From: a virus
Lineage: Duplodnaviria > Heunggongvirae > Uroviricota > Caudoviricetes
Length of the DNA: 7,753 nucleotides
Virus record (IMG/VR): IMGVR_UViG_2751185961_000003
Location: 1-7,753 of that record
Direction: 5' to 3' (one strand)
Shown here: piece after piece, positions 1,821-5,762 of the stretch
How positions within the stretch are numbered: the stretch's first letter is position 1
Layout: each line of letters begins with the position of its first letter
Made by a program: the position numbers and the translations under genes
Notes under the pieces: model-generated
Databases searched by the model: none
What the model saw: only the letters and a program-made list of their open reading frames with translations
What the model was told of the DNA's origin: nothing

Positions 1821-2387
1821 TCAAATAAAACCAGCTGCCTTCCGGCGTTCGTATTCCTGTTTCAGCCGTTCAATTGGCGTTGGCCCTTGCGGGTGTTTCG
1901 CCCCTTCCAGTTGTCGTCGCACTGGCGGAACACTCATCCCGTTACCAACATGCTTTGCCCATTTCGTCAGTTGCCGTTCCGCAAGTCGTTTTAACTCACC
2001 CTGCGTCATCTGGCGCTCAATCCCTCTGGTACGCATTTCGAGGCAGATGTGGTACAGCACAGGCTGTGGCCACGGGTATTTATCACTCCCGTCGTATCGC
2101 CAGGATTCATTGCGCCAGCGCCGGTACTCTTCCATCACGGCATCCACCGTAAGACCAAATGGATTTGCCCCACTCTCCGAAATCAGCGCAACAAACTCAG
2201 CCAGGTCCGGGGGCCACGTTTCACCCGCCCGGCAGCGGTCCATGCACTGACGGCAGACCAGCCGGATTTGCTGTTCAGTCATCGTGCCAATCTGGGCAAT
2301 CCAGAGCTTCGAAGGTGCGGCCCCGTTCTTCTGAGTCCAGCGGTTCGAATACACCTCCCCCATAAGCTCCCACAGCTTCCAGGCCAT
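1821..2387 (-). CDS. Lambda P-like replication protein (putative DnaB helicase loader)
   Basis: Translation (WIAQIGTMTEQQ..., PPDLAEFVAL, YPW, MTQGELKRLAERQ) aligns by eye with lambda P as I remember it. Start uncertain: ATG 2385-2387 (MAWKLW) or 2361-2363, both with weak SD; the ORF-track N-terminus to 2483 looks non-coding. Confidence 0.65.
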   Translation of the reverse strand: MAWKLWELMGEVYSNRWTQKNGAAPSKLWIAQIGTMTEQQIRLVCRQCMDRCRAGETWPPDLAEFVALISESGANPFGLTVDAVMEEYRRWRNESWRYDGSDKYPWPQPVLYHICLEMRTRGIERQMTQGELKRLAERQLTKWAKHVGNGMSVPPVRRQLEGAKHPQGPTPIERLKQEYERRKAAGFI

Positions 2388-2991
2388 TTCCGTTGCTGAT
2401 AAATCCGTTGTCTCGTTCCCACTGTTCGCGTGCTGCCCGGATTTCCTGAACTGCCCGTGATGCCGTGCCACCTGATGCTGCATGGCTTACCCCCTTGCTG
2501 ACTGGTTTTACCTGTGCCCTGACGTGCTGCACGTGGCGGGCAAATTTCTGCTCCCACTGAACCTGCGTGAAAACCTTCCCCTCCGCCATCCAGTAATCCC
2601 GGAATGCGGCAAGCTCTGCAGGTGTAAATTCCGGCTCAGGCAGAGCCATACCCCACACTGCTGCCCGTTGTCGAAAATCCGACGACGGCTGCCAGACAGT
2701 AGTCATCGAAAATTTCCCGATCGGTTCGCTCAGGCCGTCCAGGTATTCAGGTTCGGCTGTCTGCAACGGCGCACCATGCGACTCACCGGTTGGAGCACTC
2801 TCGCGCATGCGCGCGTTATGTGTGGGGTTTAATTCTGTATCTGTATCTTTATCTGTCGTGACTTGTCGTGACAGATGCGTGACACGCCGTGACATGTCGT
2901 GACATTTCGTGACGCACTCACCAGAAGGTGGATATACACCGCCATCACTGTTGCGATTGGCTGTCCTGAGACCCTGGCAATGGTTCGCCAT
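2275..2991 (-). CDS. DnaT-like C-terminal domain fragment of a replication initiator (YdaU-like); frame lacks its own convincing start
   Basis: Segment GKFSMTTVWQPSSDFRQRAAVWGMALPEPEFTPAELAAFRDYWMAEGKVFTQVQWEQKFARHVQ closely parallels E. coli DnaT (GKFAMYPDWQPDADF...[20 protein letters not shown]) from memory. Upstream part of this frame runs through the iteron array with no credible SD. Confidence 0.6.
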   Translation of the reverse strand: MANHCQGLRTANRNSDGGVYPPSGECVTKCHDMSRRVTHLSRQVTTDKDTDTELNPTHNARMRESAPTGESHGAPLQTAEPEYLDGLSEPIGKFSMTTVWQPSSDFRQRAAVWGMALPEPEFTPAELAAFRDYWMAEGKVFTQVQWEQKFARHVQHVRAQVKPVSKGVSHAASGGTASRAVQEIRAAREQWERDNGFISNGNGLEAVGAYGGGVFEPLDSEERGRTFEALDCPDWHDD

Positions 2992-3041
2992 TTGGGATCA
3001 TTTGGCATGTCATGCCACAATCTGAGCCAGGCATTAGCCAT
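2829..3041 (-). CDS. N-terminal fragment of the replication initiator (YdaU/DUF1376-like), terminated inside the iteron/AT-rich region
   Basis: ATG at 3039-3041 with GAGG 5 nt upstream; conserved-looking MANAWLRLWHDMPNDPKWRTIARVSGQPIATVMAVYIHLL; stop TAA at 2829-2831; a different frame continues into the DnaT-like domain. Confidence 0.55.
   Translation of the reverse strand: MANAWLRLWHDMPNDPKWRTIARVSGQPIATVMAVYIHLLVSASRNVTTCHGVSRICHDKSRQIKIQIQN
2835..2914. repeat. Iteron-like array: six tandem about 10-bp units (consensus tgtCGTGACa) next to an AT-rich CTGTAT-repeat tract; putative replication origin
   Basis: CGTGAC at 2857, 2867, 2878, 2888, 2898, 2908 (spacing 10, 11, 10, 10, 10); each unit has TGTC/GACA dyad arms; CTGTAT tandem at 2835-2846. 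Confidence 0.7.
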
Positions 3042-3109: not shown

Positions 3110-3535
3110 TCAATGCACGACAACAGCATTACCAGGCTGACCACCACTGTTAGTCAGGGTGCCCCAGGCGATCGCCGCTGCGACAAAATCATCCACATCT
3201 TTCACCAGCCGATCCCTCCGTTCGACGATCTCACGGTAATATTCAGAGCTGTGACTGCGCATACGGGCCACCAGCAGAGGCGGCATTGCCTTTTCGATCG
3301 CCGGTAACAGAGCCTGAATTTTTTCAACAGCATCAGGGGTGTCTTTATCCAGCCAACGGAAAATTTTCTGGGTATTACGAGCCAGGGCTTCCGGATGGCT
3401 GTCGTCGTACAGTTCCGGGAACGTCATTCCCAGCTCGAAATACGCTTTGGTAATTTTCGCAGCCGGTACTTTTTCGCCGTCCGGATGCGCCCAGACATTC
3501 ATCGCCATGCGGATGTGCTCATGTTTGATTTTCAT
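3110..3535 (-). CDS. YdaT-like (CII-like) prophage regulator, 141 aa
   Basis: ATG at 3533-3535 with GGGAG 7 nt upstream; ATGA overlap with the upstream Cro-like gene; N-terminus MKIKHEHI and gene position (Cro-like, this, replication gene) match the Rac ydaS-ydaT-ydaU arrangement as I recall it. Confidence 0.65.
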   Translation of the reverse strand: MKIKHEHIRMAMNVWAHPDGEKVPAAKITKAYFELGMTFPELYDDSHPEALARNTQKIFRWLDKDTPDAVEKIQALLPAIEKAMPPLLVARMRSHSSEYYREIVERRDRLVKDVDDFVAAAIAWGTLTNSGGQPGNAVVVH

Positions 3536-3786
3536 GAATCAACTCCCATCAGCTTTTTCGTGGTAGTTTTATTTCTGCCAATAGTTAATATTGCATCGGC
3601 AGAAAATAATCCGTTTGATGCAAGAGCGATTTTTTCAGCGTAATTGGTTTCACCGGTATATTCAGTGCGCGGCAATTTCCCGTTATTAATCCACTTGTAG
3701 ATTGCTCTTTGGCTGACACCACAAACGTCGGACACAACAGAAACACGAACAGTTTTGATTACATCTTCAAGTGTGTTCTGGTTCAT
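3532..3786 (-). CDS. Cro/YdaS-like HTH regulator (84 aa)
   Basis: ATG at 3784-3786 with GGAG 5 nt upstream; HTH VSDVCGVSQRAIYKWINNGKLP; divergent from the repressor gene. The ORF-track N-terminal extension to 3858 would cross the promoter region. Confidence 0.7.
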   Translation of the reverse strand: MNQNTLEDVIKTVRVSVVSDVCGVSQRAIYKWINNGKLPRTEYTGETNYAEKIALASNGLFSADAILTIGRNKTTTKKLMGVDS

Positions 3787-3802
3787 ACCATCTCCATAAT
3801 GT

Positions 3803-3865
3803 GAACTTTGGGTACATGATATAGCAGAACTGACAGTACATTCAATAGCGAATATCATTGAACTT
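3803..3865. promoter_or_regulatory. Divergent immunity-region promoters with operator-like repeats (PRM-like plus-strand and PR-like minus-strand)
   Basis: Plus: -35 cTGACA 3830-3835, 17-bp spacer, -10 TATCAT 3853-3858, 7 bp to the ATG at 3866 (leaderless geometry). Minus: -35 TTGAAT (plus 3840-3845), -10 TATATC (plus 3818-3823). Repeats GAAC-N5-GTACAT at 3803-3817 and 3827-3841; dyad TTCAAT-N10-ATTGAA at 3841-3862. Confidence 0.5.
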
Positions 3866-4285
3866 ATGGTTCATGAAGATAAAGCGCGTAAAGAGTTCGC
3901 CAGCAGGCTTGCGCTAGCCTGTGAAAACGCTGGTTATGAACAACACGGGAGGCAGGCAGAAATTGCCCGTCGAATGAAATTAACACCAAAAGCGGTCAGT
4001 AAATGGTTTAATGGCGAAACAATTCCTCGACGAGAGAAATTGAGGGAATTAGCAGCACTCATAGGAACAACGCCAACATATCTTTTGGGCGAGGATACAG
4101 AAAGTAGTGCGCAGGCACGCTTCTATCAGGAGTTAAACCCAAAACAAAAAATCATCATTGACCTTCTAGACGAGCTACCTGACAGTGAAACAGATGAGCT
4201 TTTAAAAACTCTTGAGGAAAAAAAACAGAAGTACAATGCAATTTACGAAGAATTAACACGAAAGAAAAAACAAAAAGCCTCTTGA
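3866..4285 (+). CDS. DicA/RacR-type (cI-like) HTH repressor without peptidase domain, 139 aa
   Basis: N-terminal XRE-type HTH (QAEIARRMKLTPKAVSKWFNGETIPRREKLRELAALIGTTPTYLLGED); acidic/coiled C-terminus (LLDELPDSETDELLKTLEEKKQ) with DicA-like architecture; no SD, consistent with a leaderless transcript. Confidence 0.75.
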   Translation: MVHEDKARKEFASRLALACENAGYEQHGRQAEIARRMKLTPKAVSKWFNGETIPRREKLRELAALIGTTPTYLLGEDTESSAQARFYQELNPKQKIIIDLLDELPDSETDELLKTLEEKKQKYNAIYEELTRKKKQKAS

Positions 4286-5704: not shown

Positions 5705-5762
5705 CCATGCGTAGTCTTTGGTGGCATCAGTTCTACTCCGTGACTGCTCTGCCACCCTTTTT
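5705..5762 (+). ncRNA. dicF: DicF-like small RNA (cell-division-inhibiting sRNA homolog)
   Basis: 3' 41 nt (tttggtggcatcagttctactccgtgactgctctgccaccc + T5) about 90% identical to E. coli K-12 DicF as I remember it, with a compensatory stem change (GGCGG/CCGCC to GGTGG/CCACC); located just upstream of a dicB homolog. Confidence 0.55.
5720..5762 (+). terminator. Intrinsic terminator-like hairpin forming the DicF 3' end
   Basis: Stem GGTGGCA (5720-5726) / TGCCACC (5750-5756) followed by CTTTTT (5757-5762). Confidence 0.5.

What the first reader, a model, noticed from the sequence alone, without database searches (positions are those of the whole stretch)
2835..2914. Helical-turn-spaced CGTGAC iteron array with adjacent AT-rich tract inside the replication gene
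Six copies of tgtCGTGACa at 10, 11, 10, 10, 10 bp spacing place every site on the same DNA face, and each unit carries TGTC/GACA dyad arms. Immediately beside it lies a CTGTAT-repeat AT-rich tract. The arrangement parallels the lambda ori inside gene O (iterons then an AT-rich unwinding element), but with shorter units than lambda's 19-bp iterons.
Basis: seen in the sequence. Interest (0 to 1): 0.5.

Follow-up and report, generated by a model that had tools for sequence, protein, structure and literature searches.

The report
Fused origin repeats, broken initiator gene
The six evenly spaced CGTGAC repeats are real replication-origin repeats of a prophage, but here they are the welded remains of two separate repeat clusters left by a 271-base deletion that destroyed the gene for the protein that should bind them.

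Summary
CGTGAC occurs six times at 2857-2913, spaced 10, 11, 10, 10, 10 bp, next to a 28-bp AT-rich tract. Only one other copy exists in the window.

The array is not a native unit. Every intact relative examined carries two GTCACG clusters about 230 bp apart inside a 345-aa initiator gene. Cluster A has 4-6 sites. Cluster B has 4-6 sites and is followed by the AT-rich tract. The window lacks 271 bp between site A4 and site B3, with an 8-bp microhomology (CGTGTCAC) at the junction. The deletion removes the helix-turn-helix coding part and shifts the frame, giving a stop at 2829-2831. The junction was found in no public collection searched.

At family level the origin reading is well supported. 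In about 42 of 57 diverse homologues the same two positions carry 10/11-bp-periodic hexamers. The hexamer changes with the protein clade: GTCACG, GAACGC, GTAACG or TAACGC. Codon choice is biased toward the motif, and a purine-rich AT tract follows cluster B.

The initiator is a DnaD-like "replisome organizer" fused to a DnaT-like domain, not lambda O. The origin design is lambda-, SPP1- or pSK41-like, with short asymmetric sites.

Verdict: an orphaned origin scar in a recently inactivated Qin-like prophage.

The parts
2908..2913 (-). Site A1. GTCACG on the gene's sense (minus) strand. It is the first site of the upstream cluster A.
   Evidence: It aligns with gene nt 129 of the intact allele L002.
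2898..2903 (-). Site A2, with a full TGTCACGACA decamer.
   Evidence: It corresponds to gene nt 139 of L002.
2888..2893 (-). Site A3.
   Evidence: It corresponds to gene nt 149 of L002.
2878..2883 (-). Hybrid site. The 5' part comes from cluster A site 4 and the 3' part from cluster B site 3.
   Evidence: Alignment with the intact allele: A4 reads GCGTGTCACtacg, B3 reads ACGTGTCACGcatc, and the window reads GCGTGTCACGcatc.
2879..2886 (-). Deletion junction. An 8-bp microhomology (CGTGTCAC on the sense strand) is shared by sites A4 and B3. 271 bp are missing relative to intact alleles.
   Evidence: Matches to intact genomes span 1172 bp for 901 query bases, or 432 bp for 161. See also the sequence comparison. 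The junction is absent from 5,426 complete E. coli genomes, the genome-collection species representatives, metagenome contigs and viral contigs.
2867..2872 (-). Site B4 of the downstream cluster, with a full decamer.
   Evidence: It corresponds to gene nt 441 of L002.
2857..2862 (-). Site B5. It is the last site and abuts the AT-rich tract.
   Evidence: It corresponds to gene nt 451 of L002.
2829..2856 (-). AT-rich tract, purine-rich on the sense strand (ACAGATAAAGATACAGATACAGAATTAA). It is the candidate DNA-unwinding element and also the joint between initiator modules.
   Evidence: GC is 0.30 and TRF reports period 6. The same tract follows cluster B in L002, in phage 606R7 (different C-terminal domain) and in a P. 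aeruginosa prophage. It also occurs in Rac-SA53 ydaU, which has a different N-domain. Purine-rich tails are general in the family.
2802..2815 (.). GC-rich palindrome CGCGCATGCGCGCG, 13 bp beyond the AT-rich tract. It may bound the unwinding region, as the palindrome to the right of the lambda origin's AT-rich region may do.
   Evidence: A near-identical sequence is present in L002 and Rac-SA53 ydaU. Any role is inference only.
2829..3041 (-). 5' remnant of the initiator gene. It has 53 native codons (MANAWLRLWHDMPNDPKW...NVTTCHGVS), then 17 out-of-frame codons and a TAA stop at 2829-2831.
   Evidence: compared with the 345-aa intact protein.
2275..2856 (-). 3' remnant of the initiator gene (linker plus DnaT-like domain). 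It is now out of frame with the start codon and is 192/193 identical to the intact allele.
   Evidence: Pfam DnaT PF17948, E = 2e-17. BLASTP comparison.
1821..2282 (-). Lambda-P-like helicase-loader gene. It is intact, 153/153 identical to relatives, and overlaps the end of the initiator gene.
   Evidence: Pfam Phage_lambda_P, E = 1e-15. PHROG 109. BLASTP comparison. Annotation in L002.

Best explanation
The array is a genuine set of replication-origin repeats, that is, binding sites for the phage's own initiator. It belongs to a family of prophage origins that lie inside the initiator gene.

In intact members the initiator has three parts: a DnaD-like winged-helix 'replisome organizer' N-domain, a basic linker and a DnaT-like C-domain. 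It is followed by a lambda-P-like helicase loader. The intact gene carries two clusters of an asymmetric hexamer (GTCACG in this clade) spaced one helical turn apart.
- Cluster A has 4-6 sites. It lies in the codons for a loop of the N-domain.
- Cluster B has 4-6 sites about 230 bp downstream. It abuts a purine-rich AT tract that would be the unwinding element.

Inferred mechanism: N-domains load head-to-tail on one face of the DNA at both clusters, stress the AT tract, and the C-domain with the P-like protein brings in the host helicase.

In this window a 271-bp deletion occurred between site A4 and site B3, through the 8-bp identity CGTGTCAC. It also removed the helix-turn-helix, wing and basic linker codons and shifted the reading frame.

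The locus is therefore an orphaned origin beside a dead initiator gene, in a Qin/dicB-type prophage. It could fire only if a co-resident phage of the same specificity supplied the initiator in trans.

Shown: the repeats, the deletion, the frameshift, and the family-wide architecture and covariation. Inferred: binding by the N-domain, unwinding at the AT tract, and loss of autonomous replication.
For: Repeats and their non-randomness.

Gene content. The minus-strand order is cro-like, YdaT/cII-like, initiator, P-like, DUF1627, DUF977.

Deletion.
- Intact alleles are 271 bp longer.
- Sequence comparison shows the two clusters and the junction.
- All 80 closest viral-contig relatives have cluster A with 6 sites and cluster B with 4-6 sites, and none has the deletion.
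- The junction is absent from every collection searched, and the fused products are absent from 15 billion proteins.
- The flanks are 99-100% identical to intact alleles with no second lesion, so this was one recent event.

Family-level origin evidence.
- The same hexamer sits at gene nt ~123-180 and ~310-450 in about 42 of 57 diverse homologues.
- Four classes are seen: GTCACG, GAACGC, GTAACG and TAACGC.
- The classes follow the protein clades.
- Spacing is 10 bp in 167 cases and 11 bp in 31.
- Codons are forced toward the motif: GTC for V before T in 56/74 cases against 24/125 elsewhere, ACG for T after V in 58/74 against 25/101, and TCA for S before R in 38/44 against 29/167.
- The repeat period is not a multiple of 3, so the motif is read in all three frames.

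Modularity. The N-domain travels with both clusters while the C-domain differs (phage 606R7). A different N-domain without the repeats carries the same C-domain (Rac-SA53 ydaU).

Precedents. Lambda, pSK41 and SPP1 place their origins in or by the initiator gene.
Against: - No binding or origin activity has been measured for any member of this family; I found no paper describing it.
- The motif class tracks protein clades, so the covariation is partly shared ancestry rather than many independent switches.
- One short metagenomic contig (L195) has a GAACGC-type cluster A but a GTCACG-type cluster B. This does not fit one protein reading both clusters, unless the contig is a recombinant or a chimera.
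- About 15 of 57 homologues show no clear cluster A.
- The AT-rich tract is short (28 bp) and also encodes a conserved DKDTD linker, so its conservation might be protein-level.
- I cannot exclude that the deletion arose during cloning or assembly of the source sequence.
Confidence: 0.8

Rival explanations
1. One reading: a native six-iteron origin inside a working initiator gene. The prophage would replicate autonomously as lambda does.
For: Regular helical-turn spacing, the adjacent AT-rich tract and the intact P-like gene downstream.
Against: The gene is split into two frames, with a stop at 2829-2831. All intact relatives have 271 more bases and two separate clusters. The missing part encodes the helix-turn-helix and wing.
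Confidence: 0.03
2. The orphaned array still works in trans. With six in-phase sites next to the AT tract it may be a competent origin. Alternatively it may act as a decoy that titrates the initiator of a co-resident or superinfecting phage of the same specificity.
For: For lambda, two iterons plus the AT-rich region suffice for unwinding and in vitro replication (PMC7466680). Ectopic lambda origin copies inhibit phages of the same replication type (abstracts of PMC3349717 and PMC4488673). E. coli genomes carry up to 6 places matching this module, so a trans supply is plausible.
Against: Nothing in the window shows a second, intact copy. The need for cluster A at its native distance from cluster B is unknown. 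No selection signature is visible, since the allele is private.
Confidence: 0.25
3. The repeats are selected only as protein repeats (a VT / SR / CH-rich peptide) and have no function as DNA.
For: The encoded peptide SRNVTRGH..VT is conserved across genera.
Against: The period is 10-11 bp, so the motif is read in three frames. Strong synonymous-codon bias favours the hexamer. The same hexamer recurs in the linker-coding cluster B, where the protein is otherwise poorly conserved. In the AF2 model, cluster A's codons span a surface beta-hairpin plus its flanks (about aa 43-62), and the hairpin tolerates a 7-aa insertion.
Confidence: 0.04
4. The hexamer arrays bind some other factor, such as a phage repressor or a host protein. 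Alternatively they serve initiator autoregulation or copy control rather than origin opening.
For: Binding has not been tested. Two clusters about 230-280 bp apart could loop, as regulatory sites do. In L194 the two clusters are inverted relative to each other.
Against: The motif class follows the N-domain clade, not the neighbouring regulators. The window and L002 have different cI and cro genes but the same repeats. The N-domain and repeats move together as one module. Cluster B always abuts an AT/purine tract, as origins do.
Confidence: 0.1
5. The 271-bp deletion is an artefact of sequencing, assembly or cloning, and the living prophage has an intact gene.
For: The allele was found in no other public sequence.
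Against: The junction lies in an 8-bp microhomology inside 10-bp repeats, which is typical of real slippage or short-homology deletions. Repeats this short do not normally collapse in assembly. Other inactivated alleles of the same gene are common, for example the frameshifted P0027 with 16 member sequences.
Confidence: 0.06

Closest known systems
Bacteriophage lambda ori inside gene O (O/P system), including the six-iteron origins of Stx phages
   Same: The origin lies inside the initiator gene. Repeated initiator sites are followed by an AT-rich, strand-asymmetric tract and then a palindrome. The repeats encode a linker between a DNA-binding N-domain and a partner-binding C-domain. A P-type helicase loader is encoded just downstream. 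Repeat number varies between relatives, and deletions in the repeat/AT-rich region inactivate the origin (PMC6022878, PMC7466680).
   Different: - The units are 10-11 bp with an asymmetric 6-bp core, not 18-19-bp dyad-symmetric iterons bound by dimers.
- There are two clusters about 230 bp apart, the first inside the DNA-binding-domain codons.
- The N-domain has no Phage_rep_O match, and its fold is nearest the DnaD N-terminal domain.
- The C-domain is DnaT-like.
SPP1 G38P replisome organizer and oriL (Pfam Phage_rep_org_N, PF09681)
   Same: NCBI names these proteins 'phage replisome organizer'. There is a weak PF09681 match over the whole N-domain (E = 0.12, aa 5-122) and PHROG 'replisome organizer' and 'DnaD-like helicase loader' matches. 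G38P binds oriL and then the helicase loader recruits the helicase (PMC5615212). From my own knowledge, not checked here: oriL lies within gene 38.
   Different: The PF09681 match is below the curated threshold. The hosts are Gram-negative. The C-domain and loader (DnaT-like plus lambda-P-like) differ from G39P/G40P. I did not compare the repeat type.
RepA_N plasmid initiators (pSK41 Rep) with the origin inside rep
   Different: No sequence-level match. These are plasmids of Gram-positive bacteria with four Rep boxes in a single cluster. They interact with primase rather than using a P-type loader.
Rac prophage YdaU (DUF1376-type N-domain plus DnaT-like C-domain)
   Same: It shares the same C-terminal module, the same GATAAAGATACAGATACAGA tract and the same GC palindrome. 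It is 88% identical to window 2200-2854 and sits in the same gene neighbourhood (ydaS/ydaT-like, P-like).
   Different: The N-domain is unrelated and there are no GTCACG repeats. An inverted repeat GTTCAAACA/TGTTTGAAC sits upstream of the tract instead.

Membership tests
Lambda-type origin (ori inside gene O) | The origin lies within the coding sequence of the phage initiator. | tested here: met
   The repeats lie inside the 345-aa initiator CDS of intact relatives. In the window they lie in its disrupted remnant.
Lambda-type origin (ori inside gene O) | Iterons are 18-19 bp long with hyphenated dyad symmetry, each bound by an O dimer. | tested here: not met
   The unit is 10-11 bp. Only the asymmetric hexamer GTCACG is conserved in 128 sites. 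A full dyad occurs in 2 of the 6 window units.
Lambda-type origin (ori inside gene O) | An AT-rich region lies immediately next to the last iteron. | tested here: met
   2829-2856 has GC 0.30 against about 0.55 regionally. A purine-rich AT tract follows cluster B across the family.
Lambda-type origin (ori inside gene O) | The initiator carries the lambda O N-terminal domain (Pfam Phage_rep_O). | tested here: not met
Lambda-type origin (ori inside gene O) | A P-type helicase loader is encoded directly downstream. | tested here: met
   PF06992 at E = 1e-15 and PHROG 109 'P-like helicase loader'. The gene is intact.
Lambda-type origin (ori inside gene O) | The initiator binds the repeats, and the segment supports replication. 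| not testable with these tools
   This needs EMSA or footprinting and an origin-plasmid assay.
Phage replisome organizer (PF09681; SPP1 G38P type) | The N-terminal domain matches Phage_rep_org_N above threshold. | tested here: inconclusive
   E = 0.12 and 12.8 bits against a cut-off of 23.3, but the match spans the whole domain (aa 5-122 to model positions 1-118 of 121). NCBI names the proteins 'phage replisome organizer'. PHROG replisome-organizer matches range from 4e-6 to 1e-4.
Phage replisome organizer (PF09681; SPP1 G38P type) | The fold is a DnaD-N-terminal-domain-like winged helix. | tested here: met
RepA_N plasmid initiators | Sequence membership of Pfam RepA_N. | tested here: not met
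DnaT-like C-terminal domain proteins (PF17948) | The DnaT DNA-binding domain is present. | tested here: met
   E = 2e-17 in the window's 3' remnant and 8e-17 in the intact allele.
Functional initiator gene (this locus) | There is an uninterrupted reading frame from the start codon through the N-domain, linker and C-domain. | tested here: not met
   The frame is broken at the deletion junction, with a stop at 2829-2831. Codons ~54-143 are missing.

The most novel reading that the evidence does not exclude
The intact family is an undescribed origin design. A winged-helix initiator writes two arrays of its own 6-bp recognition sites, one helical turn apart, into its own gene. One array lies inside the codons of a surface loop of the DNA-binding domain, and the other lies in the linker next to the unwinding tract. 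At least four switchable specificities share an NNACG core (GTCACG, GAACGC, GTAACG, TAACGC). Iteron-to-iteron deletions such as the one here would then be a recurrent one-step route by which hosts disarm such prophages, leaving an origin decoy that can titrate the initiator of related incoming phages.
Probability: 0.2. Interest if true: 0.6.

Novelty: new variant of a known kind. Interest (0 to 1): 0.4.

Why it matters
For this window, the result changes the annotation. The replication gene is a pseudogene, and the neat six-copy array is a deletion scar rather than a designed unit. The prophage is a Qin/dicB-type element carrying DicF. It has probably lost autonomous replication very recently.

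More generally, this initiator family occurs in over a thousand complete E. coli genomes and in Pseudomonas, Aeromonas and Ralstonia phages. It has a readable, co-varying origin code at two fixed positions in the gene. That gives a direct handle for three things: predicting replication-compatibility groups among co-resident lambdoid prophages, including those of Shiga-toxin strains; designing specificity-swap experiments; and asking how a protein tolerates having its own binding sites imposed on its codons.

Tried and rejected
- **Lambda O homology.** Rejected. There is no Pfam Phage_rep_O match and the fold is nearest the DnaD N-terminal domain.
- **Dyad-symmetric iterons.** Rejected by the site logo.
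- **Junction searches.** An 18-nt pattern against genome representatives returned only chance hits in high-GC genomes. A 40-nt query against 5,426 E. coli genomes gave no full-length match. A 39-nt pattern in metagenome and viral contigs gave nothing.
- **Exact look-up of the fused ORF products.** Absent from the collection.
- **Profile search against PDB sequences.** Nothing meaningful, E about 9.
- **Literature.** Searches for GTCACG iterons, ydaU or Rac origins, and replisome-organizer iterons found no description of this origin type.
- **Alignment-based locus search.** The query meant to reach distant relatives returned only close ones, because ranking follows the first sequence. I replaced it with single-protein queries from distant clades.
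- **Independent hexamer calling in the cluster B region.** The 6/12-bp repeats of the AT tract partly hijacked it, giving 32 of 55 concordant by that strict method. The global call is the better measure.
- **Rfam.** Nothing at the array; only DicF elsewhere in the window.
- **Promoter and terminator scans.** Nothing above the shuffled expectation. The 'terminator-like' hits at 2799-2827 are the GC palindrome.

Full report
**1. The observation**

On the + strand CGTGAC starts at 2857, 2867, 2878, 2888, 2898 and 2908, spaced 10, 11, 10, 10, 10 bp. Tandem Repeats Finder reports 2854-2913 as a period-10 array of 5.9 copies with consensus TGTCGTGACA. It reports 2834-2856 as a period-6 TCTGTA repeat.

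The window holds only seven CGTGAC on both strands, against 3.2 expected from shuffles. Six of them fall within 57 bp, which a Poisson estimate puts at about 3e-11 for the window. GC drops to 0.30 at 2830-2859, against about 0.55 for the surrounding 500-bp windows.

The one overstated detail is the dyad. Only two of the six units have both TGTC and GACA arms. In 128 sites from 16 diverse relatives only the hexamer core is conserved.

**2. Context**

The genes around the array are on the minus strand. In order they are:
- a cro-like gene (3532-3858);
- a YdaT/cII-like gene (3110-3535);
- the replication initiator;
- a lambda-P-like helicase loader (1821-2282);
- DUF1627 and DUF977 genes.

A short cI-like repressor is divergent at 3866-4285. 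Rfam finds DicF at 5706-5757, and relatives carry dicB. This is therefore the early region of a Qin/Rac-like lambdoid prophage of E. coli. The neighbouring YdaT-like and repressor proteins are exact matches to E. coli proteins.

**3. The array is a deletion scar**

The initiator reading frame is broken.
- One frame gives MANAWLRLWHDMPNDPKW...NVTTCHGVS, then 17 foreign codons and a stop at 2829-2831.
- Another frame carries the DnaT-like C-terminal part.

Matches in 5,426 complete E. coli genomes cover the 901-base query in two pieces spanning 1,172 bp, which is 271 bp more. The intact allele L002 encodes a 345-aa protein. Its sequence shows two GTCACG clusters:
- cluster A at gene nt 129-186, with six GTCAC(G) sites spaced 10, 10, 10, 11, 11;
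- cluster B at nt 410-456, with five sites spaced 10, 10, 11, 10, directly followed by ACAGATAAAGATACAGATACAGAATTAAA.

The window equals this allele with everything between A4 (GCGTGTCAC|tacg) and B3 (ACGTGTCAC|Gcatc) removed. The crossover lies in the shared 8 bp CGTGTCAC, at window 2879-2886.

The six sites are therefore A1, A2, A3, an A4/B3 hybrid, B4 and B5. The loss is 271 bp, or 3 x 90 + 1, which explains the frameshift.

The AlphaFold model of the intact N-domain places the helix-turn-helix at residues 63-84, the wing at 85-93 and a basic helix at 117-138. All of these fall inside the deleted codons ~54-143.

All 80 closest viral-contig relatives have the two-cluster layout, and none has the deletion. 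The junction is absent from complete E. coli genomes, from the genome collection's species representatives (chance hits only), and from metagenome and viral contigs. The fused ORF products are not among 15 billion proteins.

The P gene is 153/153 identical to the intact allele, and the 3' part of the initiator is 192/193 identical, with no second lesion. So this was a single, recent event.

**4. What the repeats are in intact relatives**

Four lines of evidence say they are DNA sites for the initiator's N-domain.

(a) *Modularity.* Phage 606R7 has the same N-domain with cluster A (4 sites), cluster B (5 sites) and the AT tract, but an unrelated C-terminal domain. Rac-SA53 YdaU has the same C-terminal domain and the same AT tract, but a DUF1376-type N-domain and no GTCACG.

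(b) *Covariation.*
- A P. aeruginosa prophage with a 68%-identical, stand-alone N-domain has GTCACG x4 and x4 at the same two positions.
- A metagenomic homologue at 53% identity has GAACGC x3-4 and x5-6 there.
- Across 57 non-redundant homologues, about 42 have the same periodic hexamer at least twice at gene nt ~123-180 and at least twice at ~310-450.
- The classes are GAACGC, GTCACG, GTAACG, TAACGC and GTCACA, sharing an NNACG core.
- The classes follow the protein clades.
- Spacings are 10 bp in 167 cases and 11 bp in 31.

(c) *Codon bias.* This was measured in 17 GTCACG-class genes.
- V before T is GTC in 56/74 cases, against 24/125 elsewhere.
- T after V is ACG in 58/74, against 25/101 elsewhere.
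- S before R is TCA in 38/44, against 29/167 elsewhere.
- The 10-bp period forces the motif through all three frames (..SRNVTRGH..VT..), which protein-level selection would not produce.

(d) *An origin-like neighbour.* Cluster B is followed by a purine-rich AT tract in nearly all loci examined. In the E. coli module a GC palindrome, CGCGCATGCGCGCG (2802-2815), follows 13 bp further on.

**5. How it most likely works**

This section is inference. N-domains bind the asymmetric hexamers head-to-tail, one per helical turn on one face. Two nucleoprotein arrays form and distort the adjacent AT tract. The DnaT-like C-domain and the P-like loader then deliver the host helicase.

This parallels three known systems:
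- lambda, with its O-some, AT-rich region and P protein (PMC6022878 and PMC7466680);
- SPP1, where G38P binds oriL (PMC5615212);
- pSK41, whose Rep boxes lie centrally within rep and whose origin-encoded peptide is a dispensable linker (PMC5703833).

In the window no initiator can be made in cis. The surviving array keeps six in-phase sites next to the AT tract. For lambda, two iterons plus the AT-rich region suffice in vitro. So the array may still respond to an initiator supplied by another prophage, and E. coli genomes carry up to six places matching this module. It might also titrate such an initiator. Both ideas are untested.

Premature termination upstream may also lower expression of the overlapping P gene (inference).

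**6. Comparison with known families**

The design matches lambda ori in several respects: location in the initiator gene, repeats followed by an AT tract and a palindrome, a downstream P-type loader, and variable repeat number.

It fails two defining features.
- The sites are not 18-19-bp dyads.
- The initiator has no lambda O domain.

So it works like a lambda, SPP1 or pSK41 origin. By sequence it is best filed with the replisome-organizer initiators, not as a lambda O/ori member.

Only 24 deposited phage genomes carry this N-domain, and none is a studied model. I found no paper describing these repeats.

**7. Caveats**

- No experiment exists for this family.
- Covariation is partly phylogenetic.
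- L195 has discordant clusters, and L194 has clusters in opposite orientation.
- About a quarter of homologues lack a clear cluster A.
- An artefactual origin of the deletion cannot be excluded without the source strain.

**8. Verdict**

The 'origin inside the replication gene' analogy is right at family level. The specific six-copy array is an accidental fusion that marks the inactivation of the initiator gene.

As a window-level finding it is a recent pseudogenisation, of modest interest. The family-level two-cluster, helical-turn hexamer origin with switchable specificity appears undescribed. It is a new variant of a known kind.

Noticed in passing
window 5706-5757 (+): A DicF antisense RNA (Rfam RF00039, 58.9 bits). 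The window's seventh CGTGAC (5739) lies inside it. Together with dicB in relatives, this marks the element as a Qin/dicB-type prophage.
   Followed up: partly
window 3003-3017: A perfect 15-bp palindrome, TGGCATGACATGCCA on the sense strand. It encodes the nearly invariant WHDMP motif at the start of the N-domain. It is kept in the P. aeruginosa homologue and is imperfect in the GAACGC-class one. It could be a DNA site as well as a protein motif.
   Followed up: no
window 2802-2815: A GC-rich palindrome, CGCGCATGCGCGCG, lies 13 bp beyond the AT-rich tract. It is shared with L002 and, nearly, with Rac-SA53 ydaU. It recalls the palindrome to the right of the lambda origin's AT-rich region.
   Followed up: partly
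L107 about 2190-2230 (Rac-SA53 ydaU, minus strand): The DUF1376-type initiator has no hexamer arrays. It has an inverted repeat GTTCAAACA...TGTTTGAAC just upstream of the same GATAAAGATACAGATACAGA tract. This may be a different origin-recognition solution at the same joint.
   Followed up: no
L195 (P0106), gene nt 130-155 and 370-440: A hybrid layout. Cluster A is the GAACGC type (GCGAAC x3), but cluster B is GTCACG x3 preceded by three inverted GTGAC. It is either a recombinant between specificity classes or a chimeric 1-kb contig.
   Followed up: no
L194 (P0119), gene nt 125-150 and 343-380: Cluster A reads GCGTCAC x2, while cluster B reads the reverse complement GTGACGC x4. The two clusters can therefore be in opposite orientation.
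   Followed up: no
P0027 (16 member sequences), P0045, P0117: Other inactivated alleles of the same initiator exist in public data. P0027 is frameshifted after WEKRQ, and its tail SRQIKIQIKIQ reads the AT tract in the same wrong frame as the window's SRQIKIQIQN*. Loss of this gene seems common.
   Followed up: partly
P0036, P0064, P0087; L110 2008-2508: Some homologues are N-domain fusions to an HNH endonuclease (PF01844/PF14279), starting about where cluster B would be. In L110 an HNH gene sits immediately upstream of the initiator.
   Followed up: no
L109 2501-5225 (P. aeruginosa prophage): Here the N-domain with both GTCACG clusters is a stand-alone 160-aa protein. It is followed by a 135-aa protein and a 609-aa Toprim/DnaB-like primase-helicase. 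The origin module is thus combined with quite different replisome partners.
   Followed up: no
gene nt ~192 of GTCACG-class homologues (for example L002; deleted in the window): A conserved inverted copy (CGTGAC, encoding the DVT of ALDVTE) lies about 30 bp after cluster A in most GTCACG-class genes. It is replaced in the GAACGC class.
   Followed up: partly
window 3866-4285 (+): The cI-position repressor is only 139 aa, with an HTH_3 domain and no LexA/S24 peptidase domain. L002 has a 238-aa LexA-family repressor at that place. The immunity region therefore differs from the otherwise near-identical replication module.
   Followed up: no
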